This document shows, in pieces, positions 1 through 4,467 of a DNA stretch of 64,000 nt (its first letter is position 1; every line of letters starts with the position of its first letter). A program made the position numbers and the translations under genes. The notes under the pieces were generated by a model. It saw only the letters and a list, made by a program, of their open reading frames with translations, ran no database searches and was not told where the DNA came from. The DNA is from Lophium mytilinum. Taxonomy: Eukaryota. Location of the stretch: contig MU004181.1 of NCBI GenBank assembly GCA_010093605.1, forward strand, positions 992,001 to 1,056,000, given 5' to 3'.

Positions 1-247
1 TGGAAGTGGGATCACCCGCTCAATCGATTCGCGCCATTCGCCTCGGAGAGCAGCGGCGAAGAAGTCTGAGCTCTTGACGAGAAAGGAGTCGTGGATCAGA
101 AAATCCTGAGAGCGGTTTGTAGAGCTGACTCGAACAGTGACCACGGTCGATCCTATGCTAACTTGTGTTAGTATGCACGTATTTGTTCAACTGGATTCGG
201 AGAGCTTGCCCGACTGCCTGGGAGGCGGGACGCCGGACTTCGGTCAT
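1..247 (-). CDS. BTB/POZ-domain protein, 5' part; the gene runs off the window start
   Basis: Exon 157..1 translates to IGSTVVTVRVSSTNRSQDFLIHDSFLVKSSDFFAAALRGEWRESIERVIPLP, a typical fungal BTB N-terminus (F.IH..L...S.FF.AAL.G.W.ES). It is preceded by a TACTAAC branch point and TAG acceptor. The putative exon 1 (247..210, MTEVRRPASQAV) joins in frame through a GC-AG intron at 209..158 and is less certain. Confidence 0.75.
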
Positions 248-740
248 CTTGGCTTGCAAGAGTAATAAGATGAAAATAGGAGAGACAGCAGAGTGTGGCC
301 GAAGGATCTACGAAGTAGGCTGTGATATGATGTGATATGCTGTGGTGGTGGTTGTGGTTGTGAGGAGGGATGTCCTTGCTACGGTACGAAAGATTCAGCC
401 ATTTATATATTAGCTCCCCCAAAACTTGCTTGCTGTCAGTGAATCGACCACGAATTCCCATTTTCATCGTGTGGAAAAAGACACCGAATCGGGAGGGATG
501 GAGAATCCAGAGAGAGAAGAAAGGTAGCAGCAATGAGCTGCTACTCTTCAAGCAAAGCTTAACGGAGCTAGAACAAAGATGTTGAAAGCTCGTAGCGTTA
601 GCAATAGCACTAAAGCACACATAATCCATCAACTCGGTCACATCACGCTTCCAACGCCAAAGTCTTCATCCTAAAACCCACAAAAACAACACCCACCAAA
701 AAAACAAACCCTCAACCCTCACCCCATCTATCAGAAGAGC

Positions 741-747
741 AAAAAAA
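741..747 (-). terminator. RNA polymerase III oligo-T terminator of the tRNA gene
   Basis: A7 on the plus strand is T7 on the minus strand, just 3' of the tRNA discriminator base. Confidence 0.8.
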
Positions 748-750
748 GAT

Positions 751-888
751 TACTCGGACTGAGGTTTGAACTCAGGACCTTCAGTGCAACTAATGTTACT
801 GCTTTGGTATTAGTATTGAAAACCTCGAATGCGGTTTGGAACTGGGATAACCTACGACTGACGTGATAACCAACTACACCATCCGAGC
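751..888 (-). tRNA. tRNA-Val(AAC) with a 57-nt spliceosomal-type intron (855..799) and a 7-nt canonical tRNA intron (793..787)
   Basis: The spliced 74-mer GCTCGGA TG GTGT AGTTGGTTA TCAC G TCAGT CT-AAC-AC ACTGA AGGTC CTGAG TTCAAAC CTCAG TCCGAGT A folds into a complete cloverleaf. A box (TGGTGTAGTTGG) and B box (GTTCAAAC) are intact, the discriminator is A73, and a T7 terminator lies 3 nt downstream. Confidence 0.9.
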
Positions 889-1716
889 TTAATAAGCGGT
901 ATCAAATATAATTGCAGCTATCATCTAAGAGGCTCGGGAGGTGCGAGATGATGGCGTTGGTGATGATGTGTTGGCGGTGTGAATATTGCAAGGAGGAGTG
1001 GAGTAGGAAGTGTGAGGATGCCCCGCTGACCTTTCCGCATTCGGCTGGGGAGGGGGCAGTCAAATGATTTGACTGCGAGCTGTAGCATCTAATATTAGGG
1101 GGAACGCAACGTTATGTACATAGAGCGCCCCTGTTTTGCTACTAGCATCGATCGTTCTAGGTGATAGTCATGATCCAACAAATAATACTCTTTTTCTTCG
1201 CGATTCAAGATTTTCTACGTATAATGGAACGCATGTCAATTCAATAGCATTGTGATGTCCAACTACGGTTAGAGATCTGATCCTCATAATTTTTGAACAT
1301 TTCGACTGGATGTACGGCTGTACCTTCAAAAAGTTCACAAGTCAGCATAGAGGCACGAGTTTAGCATTGAAAGCCACGAAGAAGCGTGGCGCATATTCTT
1401 TACTTATTTGTACAATAGCAGTATTAATATCCTGGGTGGAGAGCATAACCAACTCGTAAATCCATCCCGCTGTATAGCCAAAGAAATCATGTCGATGAGA
1501 ACGTAAGCATATCCAGGCGCCATCCTAACCCGAGCCCAAGAAACCTGTCCTGTGAAGCCTAAAAGAAACCCCATAGAGTGAAACAAAAAAGAGATAGATG
1601 TGAAGGGCCGGCTATGAACACTCCTAATATCACAGGTGCTGAGCGTGAAGAGGTACGTATGCTTGCACTGTATCACGCTATACCCAAAAAGAAATCGATG
1701 AACCAACTGCCGTCTC

Positions 1717-3719
1717 TTAGTTCTTTTGCACAAACTCCTCAACCCGCATCGTCTCCCCACTTGGGCGGGGCGACACATCAACGACGCTGCTGTCGGGTGT
1801 CCACGCGGTGGAGGTGCTTGGTGTGTATTCCCTGAACCCGTTCACAACTACATCACTGCTGTCCTCGGCATCCTCATACGCCGGTGGCTCAGTACTACCA
1901 GACTCAGACCGGCAATCAGCCTCAGACCGGTAGTCCGGAAGGCTACTTGTGCGGCTCGGCGGCTCCGAGCTCATCACCGGCAGTTCCGCAATCGTGAAGG
2001 CTGGGTGCGAGTTCGGCTCCATACCCATGTGGATTTGTCTCTGCAGCTGCTCATGTTGAAGCGACGACATGGCTGAGCGCCCTTCCTCCGCTTGCACTAG
2101 ACTATTTACGACGCCATGCGCAGCTCGGAATTGTCTGATCTCTTCTTGCATCGCGGCCTCGAGGATGCTTTCTTGCTCGTTAATGAGCGCTCGTTTCTCC
2201 TCATAGTCGGCGATGCGTCCAAGATCGTGATTGCGGTACCACCAGCTAGCCCATGCCTGGCGGCGGGCAGCTCGACGGTATTGGCGTGCGGTGCGGCGCT
2301 CCTCTCTTGCAGCACGGCGGTCAGTGCGGGCGCGGAGGGTACAGCACCGGCGGTGGAGGAAAGCGACGAGGGCGGTCAGACCAAGGGCGGAGGCGAGAAT
2401 GCTCAGGGCTTTGACGAGGGGAGAGTGAGGTGGGGGAGGGGGACCGTGGTGATGGCCATGGTGAGGGGGGCCGTGATGTGGTGGTGGTGGAGGCGGAGGT
2501 GGAGGTCCAGGAGGATGGCCCTCAGGTGGTGGAGGAGGCGGCGGTGTGTGGGAACAGTTCCCGTTACACACCGCGTGTATTTGCTCCGGCAGGCCGTGAG
2601 TCTGCCAAACGGCGTGGTAGGGGTCGTTAGGCCCTCCCATCGGTGGAGGGGGGTGATGTGGACGGAGTCGAATATAAATGATCTTGACAGCGCCGTGTGC
2701 CTTTCGTGCAATCGTCTTAACTATGCATGTGAGGCTGTCACACTGCTTCAGCTCCGCTTTGAGACTAGCGGCGTCGTGCCGGAGATGTTCTCTGATGCGT
2801 TGCTTCTTCTCGCGGATCTGGTCCCGAAGTACTTTGGCCTGCTGTTGAAGGTGTTTGAGCTCGGCGATCTCCTCCTCGATAGAGTGGAATTTTAGTTGGG
2901 TTTCCTCGACAGTTCCCTCAGATAGACGTAAGTGTGCCGGCGGTTCTCGCCAGGAGTCGGAGAACTTCTGGTCGCCTGCGGTAGGATCGGGGAACAGTTC
3001 AAGCCTGAGTAGCTCCGGAGGAGACAACTGCTTGAAGGAGATGGTGAAACCAGAAGACTGTGGAATCGGCCTGCCATCAATGGCTTTGATATTCACGGTG
3101 AGAACTTGAGCATTCTCAGCGTCGGTAGGTGCGTCTTTAGATTCGGGACCCTCGAGGCAGGTTGAGCCCCAGGATAGGTCCAAGTCGTGTGTGCGGAACC
3201 ATTCATTTTTCTCTAGGTCAGACACTCCCTCAAAAGAACCTTCGCCGTGGCCGTGGTCGCCGGTCCATTCCTGAGCGAGGTAACGGCCATTAAGCGTGAT
3301 GTTAGAAACGCCACAGGGTGACTCGGATGAGAATGCCTGGAAGCTGAAGGTCTAATGAGGAGAGGTAAGCTTGAGTTCAATGATACTGCTGCCTGAGGTG
3401 TAAGGTAAGCACAGAGTATACGTACGAGGGACTCGTCATCGTGGCTGTTAGGCTCTTGGCTCAGACAGCCAGGACACGGGATGCTGAATGTCGCCGTTGC
3501 TTGCGAGTCTTGCAAGTCTAGATGTTATTTGTTAGCAGCTGCCTGGACGGAGTGGATATATAAGAGCAAGGGCGCACCAAGCTCGATGGTAGGATTTGTC
3601 GCTTCTGCATTGTCAAGATTCCCATGTCCCGGTGGACCCGGCGGTGGTGGGATGGCGGCAGAAGAGACGAGAGCTGGGAGAGCCCACGCCCAGGCCAGCG
3701 ACTTCAAAGAGGGCCGCAT
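1717..3719 (-). CDS. Hypothetical single-pass membrane protein (signal peptide, coiled coil, Pro/His-rich linker, TM helix, PY-like motifs in the tail)
   Basis: Signal-peptide exon MRPSLKSLAWAWALPALVSSAA, two GT-AG introns (second at 3424..3351), then the 502-aa ORF with TM segment ALSILASALGLTALVAFL and LPDY/PPAY motifs. Confidence 0.8.
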
Positions 3720-4467
3720 GGTTGAAAAGAAAGAAGAGAAAGAGCAGAACGACTAGGAGAAGAGCAAAGACAACAGAAGCACTACGATTTGGCTTAAAAA
3801 AATCTCCAGTCCCGGCGCGAGAGTAGTGAACAGCTGTCCCAGAGATCAGATTCCAGGCACCAGCAACTCGGGGAACCCTTCGTATTATTGGCGTCGACGC
3901 GAGAAACAGTCTAAGCCTGGCTGGGTGAGGGCTGATGCACAGCCTGCGTGCCCTGCCGCGTCACCTCGATGCGCCGAGTGGGGCCTCGAAGCTCATGGAG
4001 GCTTTCGCATCTCCTGGCAAAGCTTCAATTGCATCTTAATAGCTGCGTTGATAATAGTTAAATAGTAGTGACAGTGCGACAGAGCAGCGAGCGGTACCGA
4101 AGCTTGAGGGTATGAGGTACCGTGGAAGCATTTGAAAACACCACGTTTCGCTTGCGAGAACTGTAGCTCAACGTCCAAAATCGCGGTGGTACGTACCGTC
4201 CCTCTGCCGATTGGCCTCCACATCTGCAGGGCTGCAGCCTTGTCGCGGCCTCCCAGGGTTGGATTGATTCTGTGGTGACATGGCGCCCATTGGTCGAGGC
4301 CCTATAAAGCACGTGACTCATGCCAAGCGCTAAACACGCAACCCCGCGACTTTTCCGTCACACTATCAACACTGAAGGACCTACCGAGCCCACCAAAACC
4401 CCCGCATCCGACATATACGCACCTCAGCTCCTTCTCAGCGGTTCTCGGCGCAGACGCCCTCAGCAAA

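What the first reader, a model, noticed from the sequence alone, without database searches (positions are those of the whole stretch)
751..888. tRNA-Val(AAC) gene with an apparent spliceosomal intron inside the anticodon loop
Seen: the minus strand reads ...TCAGT C | GTAGGT tatcccagttccaaaccgcattcgaggttttcaa TACTAAT accaaag CAG | T AAC A [ttagttg] C ACTGA... The 57-nt segment at 855..799 has a U2-type donor, a branch point (815..809) and a CAG acceptor, with size and spacing like the mRNA introns in this window. Precise removal restores C32-U33-A34A35C36-A37, and the body matches Val (A73, C38, short variable loop). All stems, both boxes and the terminator are intact, which argues against a decaying pseudogene. 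Established: spliceosomal introns occur in fungal U6 snRNA (a Pol III transcript) and in ascomycete nuclear rRNA, whereas tRNA introns are normally cut by the SEN endonuclease at 37/38. I know of no described spliceosomal intron in a tRNA. Inference: this pre-tRNA is processed by the spliceosome, and standard tRNA finders would miscall it as Leu(TAG), undetermined or pseudo.
Basis: partly seen in the sequence, partly recalled or inferred. Interest (0 to 1): 0.93.

Follow-up and report, generated by a model that had tools for sequence, protein, structure and literature searches.

The report
Spliceosomal intron inside a tRNA-Val gene
A valine tRNA gene of the fungus Lophium mytilinum is split in its anticodon loop by an ordinary mRNA-type intron that is cut out of RNA at the predicted bases and recurs in other fungi, which I did not find described for any tRNA; whether a working tRNA results is still open.

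Summary
Minus strand 888..751 is a full cloverleaf with a 57-nt GT..AG segment (855..799) between C32 and U33. Contigs of the one public run found (X1) join 798 to 856 and skip exactly those 57 bases. The same run skips three introns in the two neighbouring genes, so it holds cDNA.

A metagenome scan found 3 loci. All 3 are tRNA-Val(AAC)-like genes with a 50-58 nt intron at the same site. All have a donor GTRAGK, a CTAAC branch point 9-12 nt before YAG, and a T-run after A73. Removing the intron in silico gives ARAGORN Val(AAC) in 3 of 3. Seven stem pairs carry compensatory changes.

The spliced RNA seen is a long transcript that runs through the tRNA and its T7 terminator into a BTB-domain gene. 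It is neither a pre-tRNA nor a mature tRNA. The window's copy keeps 7 extra bases at 37/38. L001 and L003 have a 5-nt T loop.

Best reading: a conserved family of tRNA-Val genes carrying a true spliceosomal intron. The intron is real (~0.9). A decoding tRNA as the product is unproven (~0.4). Five literature searches found no such case.

The parts
751..888 (-). tRNA-Val(AAC)-like gene: cloverleaf body plus 64 inserted bases in the anticodon loop
   Evidence: Sequence read. ARAGORN -if model spans c[751,888], score 101.7. After in-script removal of both inserts it is called Val(aac), score 114.5.
856..888 (-). 5' exon: positions 1-32 (acceptor 5' strand, D arm with A-box-like TGGTGTAGTTGG, anticodon stem 5' strand, C32)
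   Evidence: 32 of 33 bases are identical to L001/L003 and 28 of 33 to L002.
799..855 (-). 57-nt spliceosomal-type intron (GT..AG) between C32 and U33
   Evidence: The run X1 contig joins 798 to 856: skips 57, ends CT..AC on +, side 115, both 0. Homologous introns of 56, 58 and 50 nt sit at the same site in L001, L003 and L002.
850..855 (-). 5' splice site GTAGGT
   Evidence: Relatives have GTGAGG, GTGAGT and GTAAGT.
809..815 (-). Branch-point motif TACTAAT; the branch A is 11 nt from the intron's end
   Evidence: Relatives have TACTAAC (L001, L003) and GCTAAC (L002) 9-12 nt before the acceptor.
799..801 (-). 3' splice site CAG
794..798 (-). U33-A34-A35-C36-A37: anticodon AAC with its flanking loop bases
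   Evidence: The same TAACA follows the acceptor in L001-L003, but this was required by the search pattern.
787..793 (-). Seven extra bases TTAGTTG between A37 and C38. They are specific to this genome among the 4 copies. Either a mini tRNA-type intron or a disabling insertion.
   Evidence: Absent from 3 of 3 relatives. Retained in the cDNA contig, with no letters left out. They pair with UAAC as GUAAC-AUUA-GUUGC in the MFE fold. The antepenultimate base is U, so the A-I rule read is not met.
751..786 (-). 3' exon remainder: C38, anticodon stem 3' strand, variable loop AGGTC, T arm with B-box-like GAGTTCAAACC, acceptor 3' strand, A73
741..747 (-). T7 run, 3 nt after A73 (Pol III terminator-like)
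   Evidence: T5, T6 and T7 runs lie 2-5 nt after A73 in L001, L003 and L002. The cDNA contig reads through it.
1..970 (-). Stretch covered by the spliced cDNA contig (record 1, 1597 nt; 736 nt continue beyond window base 1): pieces 970-856, 798-210 and 157-1
   Evidence: table 8.
1..247 (-). Start of the BTB-domain gene: ATG at 247, GC-AG intron at 209..158, then exon 157..1
   Evidence: The in-script translation of the spliced contig reads MTEVRRPASQAVG|IGSTVV.... This equals the N-terminus of the window's own 236-aa protein P0141 (PF00651) and is 82% identical to a Mytilinidion resinicola BTB protein.

Best explanation
The locus belongs to a conserved family of nuclear tRNA-Val(AAC) genes of filamentous ascomycetes. 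In this family the anticodon loop is interrupted, between C32 and U33, by a true U2-type spliceosomal intron. SHOWN: (1) The intron has donor, branch point and acceptor like the neighbouring mRNA introns. (2) It is removed from RNA in vivo at exactly those bases. (3) Intron position and splice signals are kept in two further lineages although the intron body has diverged to random level. (4) The exons stay tRNA-shaped through compensatory changes. INFERRED: selection has kept an RNA that must fold as a cloverleaf after the spliceosome has removed the intron, most simply a tRNA-Val. The primary transcript may be a Pol III pre-tRNA, as for the intron-bearing U6 snRNA of fission yeast. It may instead be a Pol II transcript from which RNase P and RNase Z would release the tRNA. 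In this genome the only RNA seen is of the second kind: a long transcript running into the BTB-domain gene. The window's own copy carries 7 further bases at 37/38. Its end product is therefore either matured in two steps (spliceosome, then tRNA endonuclease) or, more likely, impaired as a decoder.
For: The run X1 contig joins 798|856 and skips 799-855 with GT..AG ends on the minus strand. Three other joints in the same run validate it as cDNA: 158-209, 3352-3425 and 3518-3577. The first restores the exact N-terminus of protein P0141. The metagenome scan gave 3 hits; 3 of 3 are complete tRNA-like genes with the intron at 32/33. Several features were not required by the search pattern. CACTGAAGGTC follows TAACA in 3 of 3. 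Donor positions +3 to +6 are RAGK in 3 of 3. CTAAC lies 9-12 nt before the acceptor in 3 of 3. A pyrimidine precedes AG in 3 of 3. A T5-T7 run follows A73 in 3 of 3. After in-script intron removal ARAGORN calls Val(aac) in 3 of 3 loci, with scores 103.4, 103.4 and 111.4. On covariation over the 4 sequences, 95.2% of 84 cells are paired and 7 of 21 pairs change on both sides. 0 of 500 shuffles reach this, and slid controls pair only 24-41%. By region, window vs L002 is exon 1 28/33, intron 22 same/27 different and exon 2 27/41. Window vs L001 is exon 1 32/33, intron 37/52 and 5' flank 10/22. The three genomic contexts differ: a BTB gene downstream here, a divergent HET-domain gene in L002, and ORF-free DNA in L001/L003. 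The signals are therefore not kept for one host mRNA. No bulge-helix-bulge is seen in 4 of 4 constrained folds. No T run longer than 4 occurs in any of the 4 introns.
Against: The spliced RNA seen is not a pre-tRNA. The contig bridges the tRNA 5' end by 82 nt, reads through T7 and continues into the BTB coding sequence. Contigs can also merge overlapping transcripts. No mature tRNA, CCA end or lariat was seen. Each lineage has a blemish. The window has a 14-nt loop after splicing, which ARAGORN then calls Asn(att) with an odd intron. L001/L003 have a 5-nt T loop, TTAGT, and no B box. L002 has U53-A61 where G53-C61 is near-universal (recalled). The pattern forced 18 + 7 bases including GT and AG, so decayed copies could not be found. 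L001 and L003 are 90% identical and count as one lineage, which leaves 3 lineages in all. Concerted evolution with intron-less paralogs could keep the exons tRNA-shaped without selection on these copies, and no genome was available to test this. Run X1 is RNA only by the tool's guess plus my argument from its joints.
Confidence: 0.55

Rival explanations
1. Relic reading. An inactivated tRNA-Val gene now lies in the leader of a Pol II transcript. The inserted segment is simply a leader intron of that mRNA or ncRNA, no tRNA is made, and the cloverleaf looks intact because of recent origin or gene conversion from functional Val(AAC) paralogs.
For: The only spliced RNA seen is the long transcript running into the BTB gene. 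The window copy has 7 extra bases in the loop that no relative has. L001/L003 have lost the T loop and B box. The spliced contig is continuous across both tRNA ends, so uncleaved molecules exist.
Against: The intron with its signals is kept in three unrelated genomic contexts. Window vs L002 introns are at random-level identity (22/49), while the exons stay paired through 7 compensatory pairs. T-run terminators follow A73 in 4 of 4. Gene conversion would tend to erase the intron and repair the T loop.
Confidence: 0.25
2. Processing-module reading. The family is a tRNA-shaped element selected for a role other than decoding. For example, it may fold only after splicing and then be cut by RNase P and RNase Z. 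This would release a tRNA-like small RNA and uncap the downstream RNA, coupling splicing to the fate of the host transcript.
For: Stems are conserved, but the loops that matter for decoding or for the tRNA elbow vary: a 14-nt anticodon loop here and a 5-nt T loop in L001/L003. The element lies in a long leader with 10 upstream ATGs before the BTB start. In L001/L003 about 500 nt downstream of the element are co-conserved at 90%.
Against: The anticodon loop CTAACAC is exactly restored in 3 of 3 relatives, although TAACA was forced by the pattern. Pol III-type terminators are kept in 4 of 4. No cleavage products were seen. The contexts of the 3 lineages share nothing downstream.
Confidence: 0.15
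3. tRNA-endonuclease reading. The 57-nt segment is a tRNA-type intron at a non-canonical position, cut by the SEN complex at a bulge-helix-bulge as in red algae and nucleomorphs, and its GT..AG ends are coincidental.
For: Ectopic tRNA introns exist in some eukaryotes (recalled, not checked in a call).
Against: Constrained folds of 4 of 4 pre-tRNAs show no two 3-nt bulges separated by 4 bp at the splice sites, and the folds differ between loci. Donor, branch point and acceptor motifs are conserved, whereas tRNA introns have no conserved terminal motifs (PMC10275265 section 11). Removal is seen in a long transcript that still holds both tRNA flanks.
Confidence: 0.03
4. Artefact or chance: an assembly error, or a run that does not hold RNA.
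For: Run X1 is labelled RNA only by a guess.
Against: There are four joints with GT/GC..AG ends. One restores the annotated protein's reading frame. Three independent metagenome contigs show the same architecture.
Confidence: 0.02

Closest known systems
mRNA-type (spliceosomal) intron of the U6 snRNA gene of Schizosaccharomyces pombe and other fungi (Tani & Ohshima 1989, 1991; seen as passages and references in the review PMC5855946)
   Same: An ordinary GT-AG intron of about 50 nt inside a short, structured non-coding RNA gene of Pol III type. Exon and intron sizes are comparable (sizes recalled). The intron body is not conserved apart from the splice sites.
   Different: The host is a tRNA, which is not part of the spliceosome, so the reverse-splicing-at-the-active-site explanation does not apply directly. 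The review's list of ncRNA hosts (U6, U2, U5, U1, rRNA) does not include tRNA. Splicing of a Pol III transcript is not shown here.
Spliceosomal introns in nuclear rDNA of ascomycetes (Bhattacharya et al. 2000; seen only as a citation in PMC5855946)
   Same: A spliceosomal intron in a non-Pol II, highly structured RNA gene of Pezizomycotina.
   Different: The host is rRNA (Pol I). Here the host is a tRNA and the intron sits in the anticodon loop.
Canonical eukaryotic tRNA introns cut by SEN/TSEN (review PMC10275265, section 11 read in full)
   Same: They interrupt the anticodon loop, are short, and must be removed before the tRNA can work.
   Different: Canonical introns lie between 37 and 38, have no terminal sequence motifs, and need the A-I pair and a bulge-helix-loop. 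The 57-nt intron lies at 32/33 with GT, CTAAY and YAG and no such structure. Only the window's extra 7 nt are at 37/38, and they fail the A-I rule.
Ectopic tRNA introns of Cyanidioschyzon merolae and nucleomorphs (recalled; no call)
   Same: tRNA introns outside 37/38 in eukaryotes.
   Different: Those are bulge-helix-bulge introns removed by the tRNA endonuclease. This one has spliceosomal signals and no BHB.
tRNA-like elements inside Pol II transcripts that RNase P and RNase Z cut out, such as MALAT1 mascRNA (recalled; no call)
   Same: A cloverleaf embedded in a long transcript.
   Different: No cleavage is shown here. The element here has a Pol III terminator and box A/B-like motifs, and it must be spliced before it can fold.

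Membership tests
U2-type spliceosomal intron | GT (or GC) at the 5' end and AG at the 3' end | tested here: met
   GTAGGT...CAG at 855..799. Relatives have GTGAGG/GTGAGT/GTAAGT ... CAG/CAG/TAG; GT and AG were forced by the pattern in the relatives.
U2-type spliceosomal intron | Branch-point motif CTRAY a short distance upstream of the acceptor | tested here: met
   CTAAT is 11 nt from the 3' end. CTAAC lies 9-12 nt from it in 3 of 3 relatives and was not forced. Local mRNA introns have CTAAC at 10 and 14 nt in 2 of 3.
U2-type spliceosomal intron | Precise removal from RNA in vivo with exon ligation | tested here: met
   The run X1 contig joins 798 to 856 and skips 57 nt, with both=0.
U2-type spliceosomal intron | Lariat intermediate and dependence on snRNPs | not testable with these tools
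   Needs lariat RT-PCR, branch-point mutants or splicing inhibition.
Nuclear tRNA-Val(AAC) gene | Cloverleaf with 7/4/5/5-bp stems kept across relatives | tested here: met
   ARAGORN models. 95.2% of cells are paired and 7 pairs are compensatory.
Nuclear tRNA-Val(AAC) gene | 7-nt anticodon loop with U33 and AAC after intron removal | tested here: not met
   In the window, removing the 57 nt leaves a 14-nt loop. ARAGORN then calls Asn(att) with a 7-nt odd intron, and calls Val(aac) only after TTAGTTG is also removed. The feature is met in L001, L002 and L003 (3 of 3).
Nuclear tRNA-Val(AAC) gene | Canonical 7-nt T loop (TTCRANY) and G53-C61 (consensus recalled) | tested here: inconclusive
   The window has TTCAAAC with G53-C61, so it is met. 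L001/L003 have the 5-nt loop TTAGT, so it is not met. L002 has TTCGAGT but U53-A61.
Nuclear tRNA-Val(AAC) gene | Match to the Rfam tRNA model | tested here: not met
   No match at gathering score or at E<=10 on the unspliced DNA. The spliced form could not be given to that tool.
Nuclear tRNA-Val(AAC) gene | Mature, CCA-ended, aminoacylated product | not testable with these tools
   Only one run was found, kept as contigs.
Canonical SEN-type tRNA intron | Position between N37 and N38 (PMC10275265) | tested here: not met
   The 57-nt intron lies between 32 and 33. Only the 7-nt TTAGTTG is at 37/38.
Canonical SEN-type tRNA intron | A-I pair: C32/U32 with the antepenultimate A/G of the intron; bulge-helix-loop | tested here: not met
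   For TTAGTTG the antepenultimate base is U. For the 57-nt intron no BHB or BHL appears in constrained folds.
Spliceosomal intron in a Pol III-transcribed ncRNA gene (U6 type) | The spliced substrate is the Pol III transcript | not testable with these tools
   The spliced RNA seen bridges 82 nt upstream of the tRNA and reads through the T7 run. It is therefore not a standard Pol III product. Pol III transcripts would hardly be represented in such contigs.
Introner-like element (multi-copy mobile intron) | Several near-identical copies in one genome | tested here: inconclusive
   There is no second copy in the 64-kb window; the best other match is 12 nt. The rest of the genome is not held.

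The most novel reading that the evidence does not exclude
In a clade of filamentous ascomycetes a nuclear tRNA-Val(AAC) lineage can only mature after the spliceosome removes an intron from its anticodon loop. This would be the first tRNA whose biogenesis depends on the spliceosome. In Lophium mytilinum the gene would be a nested two-intron case needing both the spliceosome (32/33) and the tRNA endonuclease (37/38). The precursor may even be a Pol II transcript shared with a protein-coding gene.
Probability: 0.35. Interest if true: 0.95.

Novelty: new variant of a known kind. Interest (0 to 1): 0.86.

Why it matters
Textbook tRNA biology keeps the two nuclear splicing systems apart. The review read places eukaryotic tRNA introns at 37/38, without terminal motifs, removed by SEN. 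The U6 review seen lists U6, U2, U5, U1 and rRNA as the non-coding hosts of spliceosomal introns, not tRNA. Here a spliceosomal intron sits in an anticodon loop, is excised in vivo and is conserved across fungal lineages. This makes three questions directly testable. Can the spliceosome act on tRNA precursors? Can tRNAs be born from Pol II transcripts in fungi? How are spliceosomal introns gained by structured RNAs? It also exposes an annotation blind spot: the standard finders run here missed or miscalled the gene, so Val(AAC) gene counts in fungal genomes may be wrong.

Tried and rejected
- Default finders. ARAGORN default finds 0 tRNAs in the window. Rfam finds 0 matches at gathering score, and on 650-1000 at E<=10 only two chance-level hits (mir-9418, sR23). 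ARAGORN with free intron position gives an implausible 93-nt Gly(acc) model.
- Whole genome. None is held for the window. Records behind L001-L003 are not held either. Paralogs, uninterrupted Val(AAC) genes and the Mytilinidion ortholog therefore could not be examined.
- Sequencing runs. No RNA holder is listed as RNA on record; one run (X1) is listed as RNA by guess. Stretches of 1-4000 without contig cover, and the lack of a listed contig over 799-855, are not evidence of anything. Contig depth was not used to rank anything. Seven contig pieces were not shown by the tool.
- Other collections. The uninterrupted probe and the intron pattern found 0 stretches in genome contigs and 0 in viral contigs, as expected for prokaryote and virus collections.
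- BHB or tRNA-endonuclease route for the 57-nt intron: rejected.
- Introner-like repeat: no second copy in the window.
- Rfam on L001-L003: four sub-threshold chance hits only.
- Pfam. There is no hit on the 52-aa exon of the BTB gene. The 165-aa stop-to-stop frame 168-665 is not a gene, with only a sub-threshold MG3 hit.
- Earlier notes of this scan. Nothing on this genome or on look-alike sequence. The word search returned only phage and bacterial tRNA intron notes of other kinds.
- Taxon of L002. A neighbouring HET-domain protein places it in Pezizomycotina, but the best named hits (54%, 35% and 34% identity, in different classes) do not fix the class.
- Literature. Searches found no report of a spliceosomal intron in a tRNA. 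The one phrase hit (bioRxiv 10.64898/2026.07.09.736142) reads 'non-spliceosomal tRNA introns'. Searches were format errors.

Full report
WHAT IS THERE. The minus strand 888..751 reads as a complete cloverleaf. It has:
- acceptor GCTCGGA/TCCGAGT with G1-U72
- D arm GTGT-AGTTGGTTA-TCAC
- anticodon stem TCAGT/ACTGA
- variable loop AGGTC
- T arm CTGAG-TTCAAAC-CTCAG
- A73, and a T7 run three bases later (747-741)

Seventy-one bases lie between U31 and A39. They are C32, a 57-nt segment (855..799: GTAGGT ... TACTAAT ... CAG), then TAACA, then TTAGTTG, then C38. No single excision gives a 7-nt loop with U33.

- ARAGORN default finds nothing.
- Rfam finds nothing.
- ARAGORN with the intron fixed at 37/38 calls Leu(tag) with G33, score 101.7.
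- After in-script removal of the 57 nt it calls Asn(att) with an odd 7-nt intron.
- After TTAGTTG is also removed it calls Val(aac), score 114.5.

From memory, the body (D arm, CTAACAC loop, AGGTC) is very like animal tRNA-Val(AAC). This is recalled, not tested.

WHOSE GENOME. The neighbouring 544-aa frame (1717-3351, minus) is 100% identical to a hypothetical protein of Lophium mytilinum. Its best relatives are other Dothideomycetes. No whole genome is held.

THE INTRON IS REALLY SPLICED. One public run holds the stretch (X1; 'RNA?' by the tool's guess; kept as contigs). Laid on window 1-4000, a 1597-nt contig lies on 1-157, 210-798 and 856-970. It skips 158-209 (GC..AG on the minus strand) and exactly 799-855 (GT..AG on the minus strand, 57 nt, no positional ambiguity).

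A second contig skips 3352-3425 and 3518-3577 (both GT..AG) in the neighbouring gene. These four joints show that the run holds cDNA. The 158-209 joint restores the frame MTEVRRPASQAVG|IGSTVV. That is the N-terminus of the window's own 236-aa BTB-domain protein P0141 (PF00651), and it is 82% identical to a Mytilinidion resinicola protein.

The tRNA intron resembles these mRNA introns, which are 52, 74 and 60 nt with CTAAC 10 and 14 nt from the end in 2 of 3. Here the intron is 57 nt with CTAAT at 11 nt.

WHICH RNA WAS SPLICED. It was not a pre-tRNA. The contig bridges the tRNA's 5' end by 82 nt, runs through the T7 run and continues into the BTB coding sequence (ATG at 247), with 736 nt beyond the window. 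The tRNA therefore lies in a leader of at least 666 nt after splicing, holding 10 upstream ATGs. Alternatively it lies in an upstream non-coding transcript that overlaps the BTB mRNA, because contigs can merge transcripts. The 7 extra bases are retained in this RNA (tables 3-4).

IT IS CONSERVED. One metagenome scan asked for 18 bases of the 5' exon plus GT, a 40-70 nt gap, and AGTAACA. It found 3 loci. All 3 are tRNA-like genes with an intron between C32 and U33:
- L001: gene 1484-1611, intron 1517-1572, 56 nt, GTGAGG..TACTAAC..CAG
- L003: gene 1484-1613, intron 1517-1574, 58 nt, GTGAGT..TACTAAC..CAG
- L002: gene 197-74 on the minus strand, intron 164-115, 50 nt, GTAAGT..GCTAAC..TAG

In all 3, removing the intron leaves the exact loop C-TAACA-C without the window's extra 7 bases. 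ARAGORN then calls Val(aac) with scores 103.4, 103.4 and 111.4.

The following features were not forced by the pattern, and each is present in 3 of 3 loci:
- CACTGAAGGTC after TAACA
- a full cloverleaf
- donor positions +3 to +6
- CTAAC 9-12 nt before the acceptor
- a pyrimidine before AG
- a T5-T7 run 2-5 nt after A73

L002 has a different acceptor stem (GGTTGCG/CGCAATC) and T stem (CCCAT/ATGGG). L001/L003 differ from the window by the compensatory change G5-C68 to A5-U68.

Over the 4 sequences, 95.2% of 84 cells pair and 7 of 21 pairs change on both sides. 0 of 500 shuffles reach this, and slid controls pair 24-41%.

By region:
- window vs L002: exon 1 28/33, intron 22 same/27 different, exon 2 27/41
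- window vs L001: exon 1 32/33, intron 37/52 aligned, 5' flank 10/22

The exons and splice signals are therefore constrained, while the intron body and the flanks are not.

The genomic contexts differ. Here a BTB gene lies downstream. In L002 a divergently oriented HET-domain gene (PF06985) lies nearby, which places L002 in Pezizomycotina but does not fix the class. L001/L003 lie in ORF-free DNA. The signals are thus not kept for the sake of one host mRNA.

WHAT SPEAKS AGAINST A WORKING DECODER. Each lineage has a blemish:
- The window has a 14-nt loop after splicing. The 7 nt pair with UAAC (GUAAC-AUUA-GUUGC). They fail the A-I rule, which requires C32/U32 paired with the antepenultimate A/G of the intron (PMC10275265, section 11), because the antepenultimate base here is U.
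- L001/L003 have a 5-nt T loop (TTAGT) and no B box.
- L002 has U53-A61 where G53-C61 is near-universal (recalled).

L001 and L003 are 90% identical over about 640 nt that start 22 nt upstream of the tRNA, with unrelated flanks. They count as one lineage and may be copies of a repeat.

The pattern could not find decayed copies. Scans of prokaryote and viral collections found nothing, as expected. Concerted evolution with intron-less paralogs remains an untested alternative to direct selection.

ALTERNATIVES TESTED:
- tRNA-endonuclease route. Constrained folds of 4 of 4 precursors show no bulge-helix-bulge at the splice sites, and the folds differ between loci.
- Introner-like repeat. There is no second copy in the window.
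- Known RNA downstream. Rfam finds nothing in L001-L003.

COMPATIBILITY WITH POL III. This is read directly from the sequence. Box A-like and box B-like motifs are in the window copy (consensus recalled). AT-rich TATA-like elements lie 15-38 nt upstream in all 4 copies. No T run longer than 4 occurs in any intron. Terminator runs follow all 4 genes. This permits Pol III transcription but does not show it.

KNOWN PRECEDENTS. The U6 review (passages and references seen) lists spliceosomal introns in U6, U2, U5, U1 and rRNA genes. tRNA is not in that list. The tRNA review (section 11 read in full) states that eukaryotic tRNA introns lie between N37 and N38 and lack conserved terminal motifs. Searches found no report of a spliceosomal intron in a tRNA. 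The only phrase hit reads 'non-spliceosomal tRNA introns'. Subscription-journal papers are not in the library, so a prior report cannot be excluded.

VERDICT. That selection keeps a cloverleaf RNA whose maturation needs the spliceosome is the best reading (0.55 as stated). That the product is a decoding tRNA is about 0.4 for the family and lower (about 0.3) for the window's own copy. Rivals are a relic exapted into a Pol II leader (0.25), a non-decoding processing module (0.15), an endonuclease intron (0.03) and an artefact (0.02).

Noticed in passing
window 158-209 (minus strand): The first intron of the BTB-domain gene has a non-canonical GC donor (GCAAGC...TTAG, 52 nt). It is confirmed by the cDNA joint and by the frame of protein P0141.
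   Followed up: yes
window 248-970 (minus strand): The RNA contig upstream of the BTB start codon is at least 666 nt after splicing and holds 10 ATGs. It is either a very long uORF-laden leader or two overlapping transcripts merged by the contig.
   Followed up: partly
window 833-843 versus 763-772 (minus strand): Inside the intron, AGTTCCAAACC nearly repeats the T-arm / box B stretch AGTTCAAACC, with one extra C. It may be a relic duplication or a second box-B-like element. By my rough estimate it is borderline against chance.
   Followed up: no
L001 1464-2100 and L003 1464-2120: A block of about 640 nt, 90% identical between two contigs, starts 22 nt upstream of the tRNA-like gene and runs about 500 nt past it. 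It has indels of 14, 3 and 19 nt, no ORF, no Rfam match and unrelated flanks. It could be a repeat (SINE-like) or a conserved non-coding transcript headed by the tRNA.
   Followed up: partly
L002 1-70 and 638-1678: Directly downstream of the L002 tRNA lies a run of more than 60 nt of T/C-rich low-complexity DNA. Upstream, in divergent orientation, is a HET-domain (PF06985, PF26639) gene whose closest named relatives belong to different fungal classes.
   Followed up: partly
window 168-665 (minus strand): The 165-aa stop-to-stop frame between the tRNA and the BTB start is not the gene. The real coding sequence starts at 247 in another frame.
   Followed up: yes
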